Shown here: piece by piece, positions 1 through 27,971 of the stretch | Layout of the letters: every line of letters begins with the position of its first letter | Numbering within the stretch: position 1 is the stretch's first letter | Sequence record: NC_019708.1 | DNA: 37,595 bases | Reading direction: 5' to 3' (one strand) | Source of the DNA: Enterobacteria phage mEp235 | Position numbers and translations under genes: made by a program | The notes under the pieces: generated by a model | Databases searched by the model: none | Told to the model about the DNA's origin: nothing | Seen by the model: the letters and a program-made list of their open reading frames with translations, nothing else

Positions 1-474
1 ATGTCTGGACCACCGAAAACCCCGACCCATCTACGTTTGGTAAGGGGTAACCCATCTAAACGCCCGATCAATGAGAACGAACCAAAACCCCCTTCAGGGG
101 TACCCACAACGCCGAAGCATTTCGACAAGCAGGGGAAATACTGGTTTAAACGGATGGCCGACGAGCTTGATGCTATCGGTGTGATGTCTCAGCTGGACGC
201 CAGAGCCCTTGAGCTGCTGGTTGAGGCTTATACCGAATACCGGCATCACTGCGACACGCTTGAAGTTGAGGGCTACACCTACCGGACCGAAACGCAGAGC
301 GGGGATGTGCTGATCAAGGCTCATCCCGCCGCCATCATGAAAGCTGATGCCTGGAAACGTCTGCGCGCCATGCTTGGTGAGTTCGGCATGACGCCAGCCA
401 GTCGCTCGAAAGTGAATGCAAAAGGCCCTGATGCGGTTGACCCGCTGGCCGAGTTTATGAAAGCGAGGGATTAA
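1..474 (+). CDS. terminase small subunit (P27-like family)
   Basis: 157-aa ORF directly upstream of and overlapping (TAATG) the large terminase; basic N-terminus typical of P27-family TerS; SD aggag lies at window end 37582-37586. Confidence 0.75.
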   Translation: MSGPPKTPTHLRLVRGNPSKRPINENEPKPPSGVPTTPKHFDKQGKYWFKRMADELDAIGVMSQLDARALELLVEAYTEYRHHCDTLEVEGYTYRTETQSGDVLIKAHPAAIMKADAWKRLRAMLGEFGMTPASRSKVNAKGPDAVDPLAEFMKARD

Positions 475-2210
475 TGGCTAAGGTTGCAGAAGGCATCCGC
501 TACGCCGAGAGGGTGGTGGCGGGGGAAATTATTGCCTGTGAGTATGTGCGCCTTGCCTGTCAGCGTTTCCTTGACGATCTGGCACACGGCGAAGAGCGCG
601 GTATTTTCTTCAGTGAGCCGCGCGCACAGCACATTCTGAATTTCTATAATTTTGTGCCTCACGTAAAAGGCGCGCTGGCAGGACAGCCTATTGAGCTGAT
701 GGACTGGCACGTTTTCATCCTGATTAATATTTTTGGTTTCGTTATCCCGCTGGTTAACGAAGAAACGGGAGAAACCGTCCTGCGTAATGACGGCAGCGGT
801 CGTCCAGTAATGGTTAGGCGCTTTCGTACAGCAGATGTTGAGGTAGCCCGTAAAAATGCCAAATCAACGCTTTGCTCCGGCGTGGGGCTTTATATGGCTG
901 GCGCCGACGGCGAGGGCGGTGCTGAGGTTTATTCCGCTGCAACCACCCGTGACCAGGCTCGAATTGTTTTTGAAGACGCGAAGAATATGGTCAAAAAGGC
1001 GAAAGCCACGCTTGGGCGGATCTTCGAATTCAACAAGCTCGCTATCTACCAGGAGCAAACGGCCTCCAAGTTCGAGCCATTATCATCAGATGCGAACAAC
1101 CTCGATGGTCTGAACATCCACTGCGCTATCGTAGACGAGCTGCATGCTCACAAAACCCGTGACGTCTGGGACGTTCTGGAGACGGCAACCGGTGCGCGTC
1201 TGCAATCGCTGCTTTTCGGTATCACCACCGCCGGTTTCAACAAAGAAGGCATCTGCTACGAATTGCGTGATTACGCCATCAAGGTGCTGCGTGGGCTGGT
1301 AAAAGACGATACGTTTTTTGCCATTATCTACACCTTAGATGAAGGTGACGATCCCTTTGATGAAAAAGTCTGGCAGAAGGCGAATCCGGGGCTGGGTATC
1401 TGTAAGCGCTGGGATGACCTGCGCCGCCTGGCTAAAAAGGCGAAAGAGCAAGTTTCGGCCAGAATTAACTTTTTCACCAAGCACATGAATATCTGGGTTA
1501 CCGCTGAGTCAGCCTGGATGGACATGATGAAATGGGAGAAATGTGAGTTTATCGCCCCGCAGCACGAACTTAAAACCTATCCCTCCTGGGTGGGCGTTGA
1601 CCTGTCAAACAAAATTGATATCTGTGCGGCCGCTAAAGTCTGGCGGGCGCCAGATGGCCACGTTCATGCGGATTTCAAATTCTGGCTACCGGAAGGACGC
1701 CTTGAGAAATGTTCACGCCAGATGGCAGAGCTCTATCGTAAGTGGGCCGGGATGGACAAGCTGATCCTTACCGACGGTGATGTAATCGACCATGCTCAGA
1801 TTAAGGAAGAGCTACAGCTGTGGGTTGCTGGCGAGAGCCTGAAAGAAATTGGCTTCGACCCGTGGAGTGCGACGCAGTTCAGCCTTGCGCTGGCAGAAGA
1901 AGGGTTGCCGCTGGTGGAAGTGCCGCAGACGGTTCGCAATTTCTCTGAGGCGATGAAAGAGGTCGAAGCGCTGGTATACGGTGGCCGCTTCCATCACAGC
2001 GATCACCCGGTGATGAACTGGATGATGTCCAACGTAACCGTCAAACCTGACCGGAACGAGAACATTTTCCCGAATAAGTCCACACCAGAGGCCAAAATTG
2101 ATGGCCCTGCGGCCTTGTTCACAGCAATGAGCCGCGTTCTGGTTAACGGTGGCAACGACCAGCAGGATCTCTCCGGATTCTTCAATAATCCCATCATGGT
2201 AGGTTTCTGA
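474..2210 (+). CDS. terminase large subunit
   Basis: 578-aa ORF, ATPase plus nuclease architecture, position between TerS and portal. Confidence 0.9.
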   Translation: MAKVAEGIRYAERVVAGEIIACEYVRLACQRFLDDLAHGEERGIFFSEPRAQHILNFYNFVPHVKGALAGQPIELMDWHVFILINIFGFVIPLVNEETGETVLRNDGSGRPVMVRRFRTADVEVARKNAKSTLCSGVGLYMAGADGEGGAEVYSAATTRDQARIVFEDAKNMVKKAKATLGRIFEFNKLAIYQEQTASKFEPLSSDANNLDGLNIHCAIVDELHAHKTRDVWDVLETATGARLQSLLFGITTAGFNKEGICYELRDYAIKVLRGLVKDDTFFAIIYTLDEGDDPFDEKVWQKANPGLGICKRWDDLRRLAKKAKEQVSARINFFTKHMNIWVTAESAWMDMMKWEKCEFIAPQHELKTYPSWVGVDLSNKIDICAAAKVWRAPDGHVHADFKFWLPEGRLEKCSRQMAELYRKWAGMDKLILTDGDVIDHAQIKEELQLWVAGESLKEIGFDPWSATQFSLALAEEGLPLVEVPQTVRNFSEAMKEVEALVYGGRFHHSDHPVMNWMMSNVTVKPDRNENIFPNKSTPEAKIDGPAALFTAMSRVLVNGGNDQQDLSGFFNNPIMVGF

Positions 2211-3514
2211 TGAAAAAAAACAAACAGCCAGGCAGGGTGAAAAGCGCTCTGCTTAACTGGCTTGGTGTGCCTATCAGCCTGACTACCGGCACGTTCTGGG
2301 AGGAATGGTTTGGTACCAGCAGCAGCGGAAAGGTGGTCACGGCCGATAAAGCCATCCAGCTATCGGCTGTATGGGCATGCGTAAGGCTGTTAAGCGAGTC
2401 TATTTCAACCCTTCCGCTGAAAATATACGTTCGACAGCCTGACGGTTCGCGTAAAGCGGCAACAGATCATCCGGCTTATTCGATACTGTGCCGCCGACCC
2501 AATTCAGAAATGACACCATCACGCTTTATGTTGATGGTGGTCGCCAGTATTTGCCTACGCGGTAATGCCTTTGTCGAGAAGCTGTTTATCGGCAATAAGC
2601 TGGTTTCTCTGGTGCCATTGATGCCCCAGAACATGGTAGTAAAGCGGCTGGATACCGGGAGGCTGGAATACACCTACACCGAGGACGGCAAAAAACGAGT
2701 TATTCCCGAAAAGAACCTGATGCACATCCGGGGATTTGGCCTTGATGGTGTCTGCGGCATGATGCCAATGATGACAGGTCGTGACGTGATCGGCGCGGCG
2801 ATGGCCGTCGAAGAATCCGCTGCAAAGATTTTCGAAAATGGCCTGCAAAGCTCCGGGTTTCTTTCAGCTGACGTGGCGCTTGATAAGGATCAAAGAGAGC
2901 GACTTCGGGGCTATATGCAGGCCTTTACCGGTTCTAAAAACGCCGGAAAAATTATGGTTCTTGAGGGCGGGCTGAAATATCAGAACGTCACTATGAACCC
3001 GGAAGCAGCGCAGATGCTTGAGTCGCGGTCGTTCAGCATCGAGGAAATCTGCAGATGGTTCCGCGTACCGCCATTTATGGTCGGCCACACATCGAAACAG
3101 AGCAGCTGGGCATCGAGTCTTGAGGGTATGAACCTCCAGTTCCTGACGCACACCCTGCGCCCCCTGCTGGTGAACATAGAGCAGGAAATAGGACGGTGCC
3201 TGCTGGACAGCGATGATGAGGTTTTCGCGGAGTTCTCTGTAGAAGGACTGCTGCGCGCCGACAGCGCGGGCCGTGCTGCGTACTATACCAGTGCGCTCCA
3301 GAATGGGTGGATGTCCCGCAATGACGTGCGCCGTCTTGAGAATATGCCACCGATTGAAGGGGGTGACATTTACACCGTTCAGCTCAACCTGACGCAACTG
3401 AAAAATCTCGAAAGCAGCAATCCTGCTGTTCAGGCTCTGGCCCTGAGAGAACTGCATAACCACGTATTCCCCGATATTTCCTTTGAACAATCTCCGCTGA
3501 AACAGGCCGCTTAG
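2210..3514 (+). CDS. portal protein (HK97-family)
   Basis: 434-aa ORF, start overlaps terL stop (ATGA), gene order terL-portal-protease-capsid. Confidence 0.85.
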   Translation: MKKNKQPGRVKSALLNWLGVPISLTTGTFWEEWFGTSSSGKVVTADKAIQLSAVWACVRLLSESISTLPLKIYVRQPDGSRKAATDHPAYSILCRRPNSEMTPSRFMLMVVASICLRGNAFVEKLFIGNKLVSLVPLMPQNMVVKRLDTGRLEYTYTEDGKKRVIPEKNLMHIRGFGLDGVCGMMPMMTGRDVIGAAMAVEESAAKIFENGLQSSGFLSADVALDKDQRERLRGYMQAFTGSKNAGKIMVLEGGLKYQNVTMNPEAAQMLESRSFSIEEICRWFRVPPFMVGHTSKQSSWASSLEGMNLQFLTHTLRPLLVNIEQEIGRCLLDSDDEVFAEFSVEGLLRADSAGRAAYYTSALQNGWMSRNDVRRLENMPPIEGGDIYTVQLNLTQLKNLESSNPAVQALALRELHNHVFPDISFEQSPLKQAA

Positions 3515-25202: not shown

Positions 25203-25228
25203 CAAAAATAAAGGCCGACTATGCGGCC
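25203..25228 (-). terminator. intrinsic terminator at 3' end of the 207-aa gene
   Basis: GGCCG-ACTATG-CGGCC hairpin followed by UUUAUUUUU on minus strand. Confidence 0.5.
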
Positions 25229-25842
25229 TCGGAAGGAAGTCCAATCATCTTATTCAAATCTTCTACCCGTAAAGCAGGAAGTGCTGTACTTGCTTTATCT
25301 GCTTCTTTTGGTAGCAACTCTTTGCTTTCAGGCCAAACTTCAATAAGTCGCTTAACTGTTGTGACTGAGTTCAAAGCAGCCCATACATTTGATTCGATAT
25401 CCTTTTTCTTGGCTTCAAGTTTTTGTTGCAATGCGCAGATTTCATCAAACCTTTTTGTTATTTCGTGTTCTGCATCAAACATGCATTTATCTTTGGTTGG
25501 AGTAGGGAGCAATATATCTTCGCCGTTGCCGTCTTTCCCATATGAATGCCATCCAACCCTTCTGCCAGATACAGTCAGATAAATTGAAGTAGAACGAACA
25601 TCGTATGAGTAAAATGAACATCCCATCTTTTCAAGTTCTTCACTTATAGCTACTAACCTGGATGATAACTGATCCACTTCCTCAGTTTTCTTTTTACCGC
25701 CAAACGCAATAACTCTGGCGTCAAGTGCAAGCTGGTTCTTTAACTTTGTTACTTCTTCAAGTTCAGTGAAAACCCCAGACTTAATTAAAGCGTTACGAGC
25801 GATTTTCTCTTTCATTCTCGTAGTTAAGCGGATTGATGACAT
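25219..25842 (-). CDS. uncharacterised soluble 207-aa protein (accessory gene in the N-cIII interval)
   Basis: SD GAGAGGAA before ATG 25842; no family recognised; bracketed by terminators. Confidence 0.6.
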   Translation of the reverse strand: MSSIRLTTRMKEKIARNALIKSGVFTELEEVTKLKNQLALDARVIAFGGKKKTEEVDQLSSRLVAISEELEKMGCSFYSYDVRSTSIYLTVSGRRVGWHSYGKDGNGEDILLPTPTKDKCMFDAEHEITKRFDEICALQQKLEAKKKDIESNVWAALNSVTTVKRLIEVWPESKELLPKEADKASTALPALRVEDLNKMIGLPSEAA

Positions 25843-25955
25843 ATTAATTCCTCTCAAATAAGTGGTTTGCTGCCTAATTTCATTTTCTGGCGACCAACAC
25901 AAGTCACACCCATTTCACTGCGTGGCTTGCTGTAATAAATTAGGTTAGTTCAGAC

Positions 25956-25980
25956 AATAAAAAACCCACCGAAGTGGGCT
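25956..25980 (-). terminator. intrinsic terminator after nun
   Basis: CCCAC-CGAA-GTGGG hairpin followed by U-run on minus strand. Confidence 0.6.
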
Positions 25981-26308
25981 ATGACCATTTTTTATTTGGA
26001 TTTCGTTGGTGAGCGTGATTAACAACTCTGTGCATTACATCCTCATATTTTTCATCTTCAATTTTTTCGACATCGCGAGGAAATGGTGTTGCTAATGCTT
26101 TGTCAACTTTGTCCATTGGTTCTTCATTAATCTTATATTCAGGACCGTCATCTATAGCATTAAATCCAGGTGTTACACCGTTTTTTAATGCATATGCTAT
26201 CCTTTTTTCCCATCTCGCTATTCTCCTCCTGTCTCGAGATGTAAGACCTCTATCAGATACTTTTCTGTTTTGTCCGCGGTCAGGATTAACATAAATAGTC
26301 TTTTTCAC
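25979..26308 (-). CDS. nun: Nun-like transcription termination/exclusion factor
   Basis: 109 aa; arginine-rich motif SRDRRRIARWEKRIAYALKN and C-terminal KKWS match HK022 Nun as recalled. Confidence 0.75.
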   Translation of the reverse strand: MKKTIYVNPDRGQNRKVSDRGLTSRDRRRIARWEKRIAYALKNGVTPGFNAIDDGPEYKINEEPMDKVDKALATPFPRDVEKIEDEKYEDVMHRVVNHAHQRNPNKKWS

Positions 26309-26319
26309 CATAAGCATAC

Positions 26320-26625
26320 TCAACAAGCACCGTACGGTAGTTTACTGTACAATTTTATTTTTTGGACTGCATGTATTTTGTTTCCTAACGGGTTTGAATC
26401 TTTGTAATAAATACTTCTATTTTTTCGAACGACTTCTTCTTTCTTCTTGCAGCAAAGGCTTCCTAGTGATGCTGCTTTGTCTGCTCTGACGCAACCAGAG
26501 AGCTTTAGCGCAATTTTTCGCGCCAGTGCTTCATTACTGCGTCGCTCGGCAATAAGTTCTGCTCTGCGAGCTTTGTAGCGGCTTTTTGCCGTACCTTTGG
26601 ATTCTTTCCAGACAATGGTTACCAT
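26320..26625 (-). CDS. N-like antitermination protein (ARM resembles phage 21 N)
   Basis: ~101 aa basic protein, first gene after pL/nutL; ARM GTAKSRYKARRAELIAERR. Confidence 0.6.
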   Translation of the reverse strand: MVTIVWKESKGTAKSRYKARRAELIAERRSNEALARKIALKLSGCVRADKAASLGSLCCKKKEEVVRKNRSIYYKDSNPLGNKIHAVQKIKLYSKLPYGAC

Positions 26626-26735
26626 GATGGTCTCCTTTAAGTGGCTTTGGCGCATGACGCGTCGAGGTGCTTATCTTCTCGATCGCTGTCTTGCAGCTGC
26701 AATTCGCGCCATCCCCAAAACCACTCAAGTTCTGG

Positions 26736-26775
26736 TCTCAACGGTTAGGTTGAGAGTCCGTCGATGTTAAAGAGC
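26736..26775 (-). promoter_or_regulatory. nutL (boxA plus boxB)
   Basis: minus-strand boxA GCTCTTTAACA (26765-26775) and boxB hairpin TCTCAAC-CTAACC-GTTGAGA (26736-26755). Confidence 0.6.
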
Positions 26776-26819
26776 CTGCCAATCTGTTCCGTTTGGCTTC
26801 CAGCGTCCTGCTGATGGCT

Positions 26820-26875
26820 TAAATTTAAGACTTCTTAATTTATTGGTCAAGTGCATTTTTGAAGAAAACTTAATT
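26820..26875 (-). promoter_or_regulatory. pL promoter with OL operators
   Basis: 18-bp operator ATTTAAGACTTCTTAATT 26823-26840 and a second at 26856-26873; minus-strand -35 TTGACC (26844-26849) and -10 TAAATT. Confidence 0.55.
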
Positions 26876-26918: not shown

Positions 26919-26940
26919 TAAAAAAGGGGCGAAAGCCCCT
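26919..26940 (-). terminator. intrinsic terminator after repressor gene
   Basis: GGGGC-GAAA-GCCCC hairpin with U-run on minus strand. Confidence 0.6.
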
Positions 26941-27590
26941 TAAGGAAGGTTTGCTAGCTTGGCATCAACGACAACGCCAATGATTTTACAGTTCCCATTG
27001 ATTTCAATCATTGGGTATTGTGGATTGAGTGGTTTCAGGAATTTTCTCCCGGCATCAATAACTAACTTTTTGAATGTCGCCTCGTTTTCTCCTTCAAGTT
27101 TGGCGACTACCAGCTTTCCATTACGTGGTTCGACTTCTGGGTCGACGAGAATAATCATCCCCTCAGGAATACTCAGTCCTGCCGGGGCAGTCATTGAGTC
27201 GCCTTTAACGTCGAGCCAAAAAGAGTCTTCAGAACAATCTACCGTTGTGTCGTACCAGTTATCTATTGCACGCCTATGATATGGCTCTACAGCTTCCATC
27301 CAACATCCTGCGCTTACCCAACTAATTAGAGGATACGAACCTCTTGGATCATGCCTGCTGTGATAGGCAATGTTTGAAAGACTATCCTCTCCTTTCAACA
27401 GGTAATCAGGGGAGCACTGCAAAGCCTTGGCTAAGGCCAATAGGTTTTCGCCATTGGGCTCAGTTTCAGATCGCTCCCATTGGGAAATAGCAACATTAGA
27501 CACGCCAACCATCTTGCCAAGGGCAGCCTGCCTAATCTTGAGTTCTTTTCTGCGAGCGCGAATACGCTCACCCATCAGTTGTGTATTCAT
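26940..27590 (-). CDS. cI: CI-type repressor (P22 c2-like), HTH plus S24 LexA-like autopeptidase domain
   Basis: 216 aa; N-terminus MNTQLMGERIRARRK...QWERSETEPNGENLLAL matches P22 c2 as recalled. Confidence 0.9.
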   Translation of the reverse strand: MNTQLMGERIRARRKELKIRQAALGKMVGVSNVAISQWERSETEPNGENLLALAKALQCSPDYLLKGEDSLSNIAYHSRHDPRGSYPLISWVSAGCWMEAVEPYHRRAIDNWYDTTVDCSEDSFWLDVKGDSMTAPAGLSIPEGMIILVDPEVEPRNGKLVVAKLEGENEATFKKLVIDAGRKFLKPLNPQYPMIEINGNCKIIGVVVDAKLANLP

Positions 27591-27862: not shown

Positions 27863-27903
27863 TGCTCTTTAACAGTTCTGGCCTTTCACCTCTAACCGGG
27901 TGA
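27863..27903 (+). promoter_or_regulatory. nutR (boxA plus boxB)
   Basis: boxA TGCTCTTTAACA 27863-27874 and boxB TCACCT-CUAACC-GGGTGA 27886-27903, same loop as nutL. Confidence 0.65.
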
Positions 27904-27971
27904 GCAAACATCAGCGGCAAATCCATTGGGTGTGCCGCTATAACTCAATATCAATATAGGAAAATTAACAA

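What the first reader, a model, noticed from the sequence alone, without database searches (positions are those of the whole stretch)
25979..26775. N-like antiterminator and Nun-like excluder on the same pL transcript
The first ORF after nutL has an arginine-rich motif resembling phage 21 N, and both nutL and nutR carry boxA plus a boxB hairpin with a CUAACC loop. The next ORF is a 109-aa HK022 Nun-like protein with its arginine-rich motif and penultimate Trp. As I recall it, HK022 itself lacks N and uses put RNAs, so a phage carrying both would have to keep its own nut sites from being targeted by Nun.
Basis: partly seen in the sequence, partly recalled or inferred. Interest (0 to 1): 0.55.

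Follow-up and report, generated by a model that had tools for sequence, protein, structure and literature searches.

The report
Phage-21 N plus HK022 Nun module
This lambda-like phage (mEp235) carries the phage-21 type N antiterminator with its own nut sites. Directly after it sits a near-identical copy of the HK022 Nun protein that blocks rival lambda phages; the pairing is real, common and self-compatible, so it is ordinary.

Summary
The window is Escherichia phage mEp235 (100% match to PV340540.1).

- **N and nut sites.** On the minus strand, pL is followed by a phage-21 nutL and an N gene. N residues 1-57 are identical to phage 21 N.
- **Nun.** Nine bases after the N stop comes a Nun gene, 107/109 identical to HK022 Nun. 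Its RNA-binding motif and its polymerase-arresting tail are both intact.
- **The self-targeting worry.** Both nut sites carry phage-21 boxB hairpins with a CUAACC hexaloop. The genome holds no lambda-type boxB and no put RNA. From the literature, Nun targets lambda boxB.
- **Own promoter and terminator.** The 29-bp HK022 PNun promoter lies, unchanged, inside the 3' end of N, and an intrinsic terminator follows nun.
- **How the cassette arrived.** An 87-nt fossil of the phage-21 N 3' end lies downstream, so the nun cassette was inserted into an N21-type gene.
- **How common it is.** The pairing is the majority context of nun: 20 of 28 phage records, about 58 IMG/VR loci and 213 of 5,426 complete E. 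coli genomes. RefSeq already labels both genes in mEpX1 and PA28.
- **HK022 is the derived form.** It keeps a start-less N 3' fragment upstream of nun.

Low interest as posed. The side finding, a wider family of Nun-tail proteins with variable RNA-binding motifs placed after N genes, is more interesting.

The parts
26940..27590 (-). cI repressor of the phage-21 immunity type, followed by an intrinsic terminator at 26941-26916
   Evidence: Peptidase_S24 plus HTH_3 domains. The region is 99% identical to phage 21 (565/571). Terminator found.
26822..26850 (-). pL promoter (TTGACC, 17-nt spacer, TAAATT)
   Evidence: Promoter scan. Identical to the phage 21 pL/OL region annotated in OL657228.
26736..26775 (-). 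nutL: boxA GCTCTTTAAC (26775-26766) and boxB hairpin with a CUAACC loop (26755-26736)
   Evidence: identical to the annotated phage 21 boxA-L and nutL.
26320..26625 (-). N antiterminator, 101 aa. The phage-21 motif and residues 1-57 are followed by a variant but homologous C-terminal half.
26344..26372 (-). PNun, the nun promoter (-35 ATGCAG 26372-26367; -10 TACAGT 26349-26344), lying inside N codons ~85-94
   Evidence: The 29-mer is identical to the HK022/O276 sequence whose hexamers are annotated 'nun gene promoter'. It is unchanged in most of the related loci scanned; variants differ only in the spacer. The generic sigma-70 scan does not detect it.
25979..26311 (-). nun: transcription arrest and exclusion factor (109-112 aa depending on start codon)
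   Evidence: 107/109 identical to 6ALG_N and 26/26 to 1HJI_B. phrog_5632 at 4e-69. dN/dS 0.07-0.25 in 14 of 15 pairwise comparisons; the one higher value rests on four differences.
25956..25980 (-). tNun: intrinsic terminator (7-bp stem, UUCG loop, T run)
   Evidence: free energy -10.3 kcal/mol, z = -2.7.
25962..26437 (-). Segment shared with HK022 (96.6% identical): N 3' end, PNun, nun and tNun. This is the mobile nun cassette.
25854..25940 (-). Fossil of the phage-21 N 3' end (28 codons plus stop: ...YYSKPRSEMGVTCVGRQKMKLGSKPLI*), displaced downstream of nun
   Evidence: 86/88 identical to the end of phage 21 N. A 10-bp direct repeat ATTTATTACA lies at 26412-26403 and 25940-25931.
27864..27904 (+). 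nutR: boxA (27864-27873) and boxB hairpin with a CUAACC loop (27885-27904), downstream of cro
   Evidence: identical to the phage 21 boxA-R and nutR.

Best explanation
This is the early-left control region of the temperate phage mEp235. It combines a phage-21 type N/nut antitermination system for the phage's own delayed-early genes with a self-contained nun cassette that excludes rivals using lambda-type nut sites.

In the lysogen, cI shuts off pL and pR. The weak constitutive promoter PNun, embedded in the last third of the N coding sequence, transcribes only nun up to tNun. Nun's arginine-rich helix binds lambda-type boxB RNA on the nascent transcripts of a superinfecting (or co-induced) lambda-type phage. 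Its C-terminal tail (H93...H98...K106 K107 W108) then wedges into RNA polymerase and blocks translocation.

The resident phage is untouched because both of its boxB hairpins are the phage-21 type: a 6-7 bp stem with a CUAACC hexaloop, bound by N's different motif. After induction, pL transcripts pass nutL, N is made, and N-modified polymerase reads through tNun into the recombination and integration genes.

Shown here: the sequence identities, nut types, promoter and terminator placement, absence of lambda boxB and put, purifying selection, and the cassette structure. Inferred from HK022, lambda and phage-21 work: PNun activity, lambda exclusion, and Nun not binding phage-21 boxB.
For: - Window = phage mEp235.
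- Nun is 107/109 identical to the HK022 Nun used for the cryo-EM structure. The motif peptide of the Nun-lambda boxB NMR complex is identical, and the two substitutions (S12R, D64E by position in the alignment, which starts at the Val after the initiator Met) lie outside the motif and the tail.
- The tail residues that the eLife 2017 paper shows contacting polymerase, DNA and RNA (H93, R94, N97, H98, H100, R102, K106, K107, W108) are all present.
- The N motif is identical to the phage-21 N peptide in 1NYB. nutL and nutR are identical to phage 21.
- No lambda boxB at 3 mismatches or fewer and no put sequence.
- The PNun 29-mer is identical to the annotated HK022/O276 nun promoter. A terminator follows nun.
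- nun dN/dS is 0.07-0.25 in 14 of 15 pairwise comparisons; the exception, 0.76, rests on four differences.
- The module occurs in 213 of 5,426 complete E. coli genomes, 20 phage records and about 58 IMG/VR loci under at least three different cI types. No close Nun sits behind a lambda-type N or boxB.
- Co-lysogen experiments report strongly reduced lambda titres with the nun carriers HK022 and mEpX1, and in triple lysogens containing mEp235, with the mechanism left open (PMC3442831).
Against: - Nothing was measured for mEp235 itself. PNun activity, Nun protein level and lambda exclusion are extrapolated from HK022.
- PNun has a poor -35 and was not picked up by the generic promoter scan.
- That Nun ignores phage-21 boxB rests on literature I could not open (Robert et al. 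1987; Chattopadhyay et al. 1995; look-ups failed), not on a test here.
- The lack of lambda-N/nun combinations is confounded by physical linkage. Most loci are copies of one inherited module, not independent events.
- N's C-terminal half differs from phage 21 N, and its function is assumed from homology and from the phage being viable.
Confidence: 0.8

Rival explanations
1. Nun also acts on the phage's own phage-21 type nut sites. It would serve as a safety catch that arrests leaky pL/pR transcription in the lysogen, and N outcompetes it after induction.
For: Nun and N are adjacent and co-transcribed from pL (no terminator between them). In some distant relatives the Nun-like motif closely resembles the neighbouring N's motif (L075). 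Nun has measurable non-specific affinity for elongation complexes (Kd about 300 nM, PMC5386594).
Against: The window's two motifs are unrelated (GTAKSRYKARRAELIAERR vs SRDRRRIARWEKRIAYALK). The boxB loops are CUAACC hexaloops, not the lambda GAAAA/GAAGA pentaloop. The literature describes Nun's action as specific to lambda. HK022 nun mutants grow and lysogenise normally (PMC4124055).
Confidence: 0.07
2. nun is an inert passenger, a leftover of recombination with an HK022-like phage and no longer functional in this context.
For: The region is visibly mosaic and contains a dead N fragment. The mEp235 record itself only calls the gene 'hypothetical protein'.
Against: The ORF is intact, every functionally mapped residue is conserved, and the promoter and terminator are conserved. 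dN/dS is 0.07-0.25 in 14 of 15 pairwise comparisons. The representative cluster holds 556 member sequences on 860 contigs.
Confidence: 0.05
3. The hybrid N is non-functional, and the phage reaches its delayed-early genes some other way (RNA-based antitermination or terminator-free operons).
For: The C-terminal 45 or so residues differ from phage 21 N, and the Pfam N_peptide score is below threshold.
Against: The variant C-terminus aligns with the N proteins of lambda and phage 21 and keeps the RKN-R-YY...G...QKIK..SK.P pattern. The reading frame is intact in dozens of loci. No put sequence and no Rfam element were found. tNun lies between pL and the recombination genes, so antitermination is needed.
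Confidence: 0.03

Closest known systems
HK022 Nun (transcription arrest / lambda exclusion factor; PDB 6ALG, 1HJI)
   Same: 98% identical protein. Same motif, same arrest tail, same PNun promoter sequence, same position as an early gene of the pL operon.
   Different: In HK022 the gene follows putL and no N gene exists. Here it follows a complete N and nutL. The terminator sequence differs slightly and a phage-21 N fossil follows it. HK022 keeps only a start-less N 3' fragment upstream of nun.
Phage 21 N / nutL / nutR antitermination system (PDB 1NYB; record OL657228)
   Same: cI, pL, boxA, both boxB hairpins and N residues 1-57 are identical or 99% identical.
   Different: Phage 21 has no nun, and ral follows N directly. 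From about codon 54 the window's N carries a different C-terminal allele, and the nun cassette (window 26429-25941) replaces only about 15-17 nt of the phage-21 sequence.
mEpX1, Kapi1, PDP110P1, PA28, 06-3462 and Stx1a-converting phages
   Same: The same nutL-N-nun-fossil module at 90-99% identity. RefSeq labels the two genes 'anti-termination protein N-like' and 'Nun-like transcription termination factor'.
   Different: Different immunity (cI) regions and different virion modules.
Phage 434 'Nun C-terminal peptide-containing protein' (CPT_434_48; phrog_12139)
   Same: It lies immediately after N on the pL operon and ends in ...VNHAHQRNPNKKWS.
   Different: 289-293 aa with an unrelated N-terminal domain and no arginine-rich motif. 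The host phage uses lambda-type N and boxB. Function unknown.
Prophage 'morons' (independent promoter-gene-terminator units)
   Same: Own promoter, single gene, own terminator, expressed from a repressed prophage, benefits the lysogen.
   Different: The promoter is not in an intergenic gap. It lies within the coding sequence of the essential upstream gene N, whose 3' end travels with the cassette.

Membership tests
Nun (HK022-type transcription arrest factor) | N-terminal arginine-rich motif that binds lambda boxB (residues ~20-44) | tested here: met
   26/26 identical to the peptide in PDB 1HJI. Binding itself was not measured.
Nun (HK022-type transcription arrest factor) | C-terminal RNA polymerase-arrest tail (H93, R94, N97, H98, H100, R102, K106, K107, penultimate W108) | tested here: met
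   Residues 65-109 are identical to 6ALG_N. Residue roles are from PMC5386594. The tail is invariant across 57 family representatives.
Nun (HK022-type transcription arrest factor) | Constitutive prophage promoter PNun just upstream, and a terminator downstream | tested here: met
   The 29-mer with both annotated hexamers is identical. Terminator. Promoter activity not testable here.
Nun (HK022-type transcription arrest factor) | Excludes lambda by arresting transcription downstream of lambda nut sites, sparing the resident phage | not testable with these tools
   Indirect only: no lambda boxB in the window, and reduced lambda titres in co-lysogens (PMC3442831).
Lambdoid N antiterminator (phage-21 specificity class) | N-terminal arginine-rich motif cognate to phage-21 boxB | tested here: met
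   22/22 identical to the 1NYB peptide.
Lambdoid N antiterminator (phage-21 specificity class) | Cognate nut sites (boxA plus boxB) just downstream of both pL and pR | tested here: met
   nutL 26775-26736 and nutR 27864-27904 are identical to the phage 21 annotation.
Lambdoid N antiterminator (phage-21 specificity class) | First gene of the pL operon | tested here: met
Lambdoid N antiterminator (phage-21 specificity class) | Central and C-terminal regions that engage NusA and RNA polymerase | tested here: inconclusive
   Residues 1-57 are identical to N21. The C-terminal segment is a divergent allele that still aligns with lambda and phage-21 N. The Pfam N_peptide score is below the cut-off, while phrog_271 gives 5e-31. 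Function not tested.
HK022-type put RNA antitermination | putL/putR RNA elements downstream of pL/pR | tested here: not met
   No match to the putL core at 3 mismatches or fewer. The HK022 put region does not align with the window.
Moron (autonomous prophage-expressed unit) | Own promoter and terminator flanking an accessory gene absent from close relatives | tested here: met
   Absent from phage 21 at the same site and flanked by duplicated N 3' sequence.

The most novel reading that the evidence does not exclude
Nun is not an HK022 curiosity. It is one member of a broad Enterobacterales family (at least 57 cluster representatives). All members share an invariant polymerase-arrest tail (D..M..VNHAH-QR..KKW). 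Their N-terminal RNA-binding motifs are swapped among classes copied from N proteins, including a true lambda N36 motif in Hafnia and Pantoea.

In all 12 N-dependent contexts inspected, the gene starts 3-9 nt after the stop codon of an N gene. On this reading the cassettes spread by inserting into or behind N genes, leaving N fossils. They form a combinatorial anti-N arms race in which each prophage shuts down rivals of a particular nut specificity. HK022's N-less put system would be a late derivative of an N21::nun ancestor. A few members (L075, L092) carry a motif like that of an N gene in the same locus, so self-targeting or self-regulation may occur elsewhere in the family.
Probability: 0.4. 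Interest if true: 0.55.

Novelty: already known. Interest (0 to 1): 0.28.

Why it matters
For the finding as posed, little changes. Both proteins and their RNA targets are textbook systems. The genome is a deposited phage, and sister records already name the two genes side by side. The value is corrective.

- The 'paradox' of N plus Nun dissolves once the boxB types are read.
- The N-plus-nun arrangement turns out to be the norm, with HK022 as the derivative.
- nun's promoter sits inside the coding sequence of the essential N gene.

If the family-level picture holds, it offers a natural library of arginine-rich motif and boxB specificities. It also offers a simple explanation for unexplained interference between co-resident lambdoid prophages, including Stx1 phages.

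Tried and rejected
**Searches that found nothing**
- Rfam scans of the whole window and of the control region.
- Lambda-type boxB and put RNA in the window.
- Pfam and NCBIfam have no Nun model, so PHROGs and PDB were used instead.

**Literature**
- King et al. 2000 (PNun), Chattopadhyay et al. 1995 and Vitiello et al. 2014 could not be opened. PNun placement therefore rests on the O276 GenBank annotation. Nun's indifference to phage-21 nut rests on my knowledge of Robert et al. 1987.
- Seven full-text searches found no paper discussing N21 plus Nun co-occurrence.
- The announcement of the phage 21 and 434 genomes does not mention Nun.

**Other limits**
- The genome-contig scan returned only 6 confirmed loci, because that collection holds one genome per species.
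- In a 56-nt context the minimum-energy fold of nutL is an alternative hairpin, not boxB. I do not read anything into this, because boxB is defined by identity to phage 21 and by the 1NYB complex.

**Ideas rejected**
- That N here is a frameshifted or scrambled chimera: its C-terminus aligns in frame with other N proteins.
- That absence of lambda-N/nun combinations proves incompatibility: the loci are mostly one linked module.

Full report
**Identity of the window.** A 1,061-nt query spanning cI's end to beyond nun matches Escherichia phage mEp235 (PV340540.1) at 100%. The window is a circular permutation of that 37,599-bp record. mEp235 is a temperate lambdoid siphovirus kept as a prophage in E. 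coli K-12 MG1655. Everything below is on the minus strand unless stated.

**Anatomy.**
- cI: 27590-26940, with a terminator at 26941-26916.
- pL: TTGACC, 17-nt spacer, TAAATT at 26850-26822.
- nutL: boxA GCTCTTTAAC at 26775-26766; boxB TCTCAAC/CTAACC/GTTGAGA at 26755-26736.
- N: Shine-Dalgarno AAGGAG, then ATG 26625 to TGA 26320 (101 aa).
- nun: ATG at 26311 (alternative starts ATG 26317 and GTG 26308), TAG ending at 25979.
- tNun: intrinsic terminator at 25980-25956, free energy -10.3 kcal/mol, z = -2.7.
- nutR (plus strand, after cro): boxA 27864-27873; boxB TTCACCT/CTAACC/GGGTGAG at 27885-27904.

These two hairpins are the only CTAACC-loop hairpins with a stem of at least 5 bp in the window. 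They are identical to the nutL and nutR annotated in the phage 21 genome OL657228.

**The two proteins.**
- N residues 1-57 equal phage 21 N, and overall identity is 80%.
- N's arginine-rich motif equals the 22-mer in the phage-21 N-boxB NMR complex 1NYB.
- N hits phrog_271 'anti-termination protein N-like' at 5e-31.
- The next ORF is 107/109 identical to HK022 Nun as used for the cryo-EM structure 6ALG (E = 1.3e-70).
- It is 26/26 identical to the Nun peptide in the Nun-lambda boxB complex 1HJI.
- It hits phrog_5632 'Nun-like transcription termination factor' at 4e-69.
- The two substitutions (S12R, D64E, positions as in the alignment, which starts at the Val after the initiator Met) lie outside the motif and outside the tail. 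Kang et al. describe the tail's contacts with polymerase, DNA and RNA: H93, R94, N97, H98, H100, R102, K106, K107, W108 (PMC5386594).

**The self-targeting question.** According to the literature I could read, Nun achieves specificity by binding the boxB hairpin of lambda nut RNA through its motif. It competes with lambda N and has no other known biological function. The window contains no lambda-type boxB (GCCCTGAARAAGGGC) even with three mismatches. It also contains no put sequence.

Its own boxB elements have 6-7 bp stems and a six-base CUAACC loop, against lambda's five-base GAAAA/GAAGA loop. They are read by a different motif. That Nun does not act on phage 21 nut sites is, to my knowledge, what Robert et al. 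(Cell 1987) reported. I could not open that paper, so this step is established knowledge recalled from memory, not tested here. On this basis the pair is compatible by construction: N21 serves the phage's own transcripts, and Nun attacks lambda-specificity rivals.

**nun is an autonomous cassette sitting in the N gene.** A three-way alignment with phage 21 and HK022 and local alignments show three segments.
- 27000-26430 matches phage 21 (565/571). The few mismatches cluster from about 26466 onward.
- 26437-25962 matches HK022 (460/476).
- 25940-25853 matches the last 88 nt of phage 21 N (86/88). This is a displaced fossil encoding ...YYSKPRSEMGVTCVGRQKMKLGSKPLI*.

Only about 15-17 nt of the phage-21 N sequence are missing. 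A 10-bp direct repeat, ATTTATTACA, marks both the N gene (26412-26403) and the start of the fossil (25940-25931).

The HK022-like segment supplies N with a new C-terminus. That C-terminus is a homologous N allele, not a scramble. It aligns in frame with lambda and phage-21 N and keeps the RKN-R-YY...G...QKIK..SK.P pattern.

Inside this segment, at 26372-26344, lies a 29-mer identical to the HK022/O276 sequence, whose hexamers ATGCAG and TACAGT are annotated as the nun promoter -35 and -10. nun therefore has its own promoter, inside N codons ~85-94, and its own terminator. No terminator separates N from nun, so pL transcripts also include nun. The promoter is weak by consensus and the generic scan does not find it. 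Its activity is inferred from HK022 (King et al. 2000, cited; not readable).

**Selection and distribution.**
- nun shows dN/dS of 0.07-0.25 in 14 of the 15 pairwise comparisons against HK022 and seven other alleles. The one higher value, 0.76, rests on only four differences.
- The nutL-N-nun-fossil module is present at 80% coverage or more in 213 of 5,426 complete E. coli genomes.
- Among deposited phages, 28 records encode Nun. Twenty have the N21-nun arrangement: mEp235, mEpX1, PDP110P1, Kapi1, PA28, 06-3462 and eleven Stx1a phages. Seven are put-type: HK022, O276 and HK75. One is a distant Hafnia relative.
- RefSeq already labels the adjacent genes of mEpX1 and PA28 'anti-termination protein N-like' and 'Nun-like transcription termination factor'.
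- In IMG/VR, about 58 of some 66 close-Nun loci have the phage-21 N motif with boxA and boxB upstream. Five have putL, two have another N motif class, and none has a lambda N or boxB.
- At least three cI types flank the module.
- Linkage makes these counts non-independent, so I do not use them as proof of incompatibility.

**HK022 is the derived state.**
- HK022 carries, between putL and nun, a start-less in-frame remnant of the same N 3' end (EVVRKNRSIYCKDSNPLGNKIHAVQKIKLYSKLPYGA...). In it the N stop codon is mutated.
- Two put-type loci (L017, L051) still carry the phage-21 N fossil downstream of tNun.
- A gene fragment cannot precede the gene. The put-nun arrangement therefore descends from an N21::nun ancestor in which nutL and the 5' part of N were replaced by putL.

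I found no paper stating this, but could not read the older HK022 literature.

**Experimental hint.** Refardt (PMC3442831) reported that induction of double lysogens of lambda with HK022, mEp213 or mEpX1 strongly reduced the titres of both phages. Lambda also stayed strongly reduced in triple lysogens containing mEp235, and the mechanism 'remains to be explained'. HK022 and mEpX1 both carry nun. This is consistent with Nun acting during co-induction but is not decisive.

**Wider family (beyond the window).**
- A profile search found 73 clusters. In an alignment of 57 representatives, D93, V99, N100, H101, A102, H103 and W111 are invariant. Q104, R105, K109 and K110 are nearly so. The N-terminal motifs fall into unrelated classes.
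- All 57 hit phrog_5632, and 20 also hit the N family phrog_271 in their N-terminal part.
- Hafnia and Pantoea members carry a genuine lambda N36 motif (Pfam 44 bits against a cut-off of 25).
- In all 12 N-dependent contexts inspected, the Nun-like gene starts 3-9 nt after an N stop codon. These are the window and L008, L049, L065, L073-L076, L088-L090 and L092.
- Klebsiella L092 has a second N downstream whose motif resembles that of the Nun-like protein. In L075 the N motif resembles that of its own Nun-like protein.
- Wild-type phage 434 has, right after its lambda-type N, a 289-293 aa protein ending in VNHAHQRNPNKKWS. It is annotated 'Nun C-terminal peptide-containing protein'.

**Verdict.** A correct observation of a known, publicly annotated and widespread arrangement. 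The apparent paradox is resolved by nut-site specificity. Novelty of the finding as posed: already known. Modest added value comes from the cassette anatomy (promoter inside N, N fossil), the polarity of HK022's origin, and the outline of a modular Nun-tail family.

Noticed in passing
L004 (HK022) 1500-1626; L017 and L051, ~3330-3480: HK022 keeps a start-less in-frame remnant of an N 3' end between putL and nun. Two put-type relatives still carry the phage-21 N fossil downstream of nun. This implies the N-less put system descends from an N21::nun ancestor.
   Followed up: partly
Proteins P0001-P0073; loci L070, L073-L076, L085-L092: A family of 80-145 aa Nun-like proteins in Escherichia, Citrobacter, Yersinia, Providencia, Proteus, Photorhabdus, Hafnia, Pantoea, Klebsiella, Serratia and Enterobacter. 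The arrest tail VNHAHQR..KKW is invariant and the arginine-rich motifs are hypervariable. Some members carry a true lambda N36 motif, and some have an N-like middle region. In all N-dependent contexts inspected the gene lies directly after an N gene.
   Followed up: partly
L094 (phage 434, OL657226) 1213-2082; L077-L081: Classical phage 434 and relatives encode, right after a lambda-type N and nutL, a 289-293 aa protein of unknown function (phrog_12139). It ends in the Nun arrest tail NPVNHAHQRNPNKKWS and is annotated 'Nun C-terminal peptide-containing protein'. The genome announcement does not discuss it.
   Followed up: partly
L075 2700-3288; L092 2632-3798: In L075 the N motif (TNSKMRRYIARGELMARKALEE) closely resembles that of its own Nun-like protein (RNSKARRYIRRGEYLARKALEY). 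In Klebsiella L092 a second complete N gene lies after the Nun-like gene and its terminator, and its motif resembles the Nun-like one. These may be cases of self-targeting, or traces of module takeover.
   Followed up: no
window 26412-26403 and 25940-25931 (-): A 10-bp direct repeat, ATTTATTACA (encoding the conserved IYY of N), brackets the inserted part of the nun cassette. An analogous duplication of the N 3' end flanks the Nun-like gene in E. coli locus L090. This suggests a recurrent insertion or recombination mode at N's 3' end.
   Followed up: partly
window 25219-25842 (-): The gene after the N fossil encodes a 207-aa Nmad5 (nucleotide modification associated domain 5) protein (Pfam 3.7e-72). 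The mEp235 record annotates it only as hypothetical. The same domain sits a few genes after the Nun-like gene in Hafnia locus L088.
   Followed up: no
window 26725-26780 (-): In a 56-nt context the predicted minimum-energy fold of nutL RNA is not the boxB hairpin. It is an overlapping alternative (UCGACGG/CCGUUGA with a 13-nt loop). The nutR context folds into the expected boxB hairpin.
   Followed up: no
window 25979-26311 (-) / PV340540.1 5315-5647: In the mEp235 GenBank record nun is 'hypothetical protein; Transcriptional regulator'. The identical protein in mEpX1 (PV340543.1, NC_019709) is named Nun or Nun-like. NCBI names for the cluster are just 'transcriptional regulator'. Pfam and NCBIfam have no Nun model.
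   Followed up: yes
PMC3442831 (Refardt 2012), mEp235 / mEpX1 / HK022 co-lysogens with lambda: Published interference between co-resident prophages: lambda titres were strongly reduced, and adding mEp235 rescued the partner phage. The mechanism was left unexplained. nun in HK022, mEpX1 and mEp235 is an obvious candidate that the paper does not mention.
   Followed up: partly
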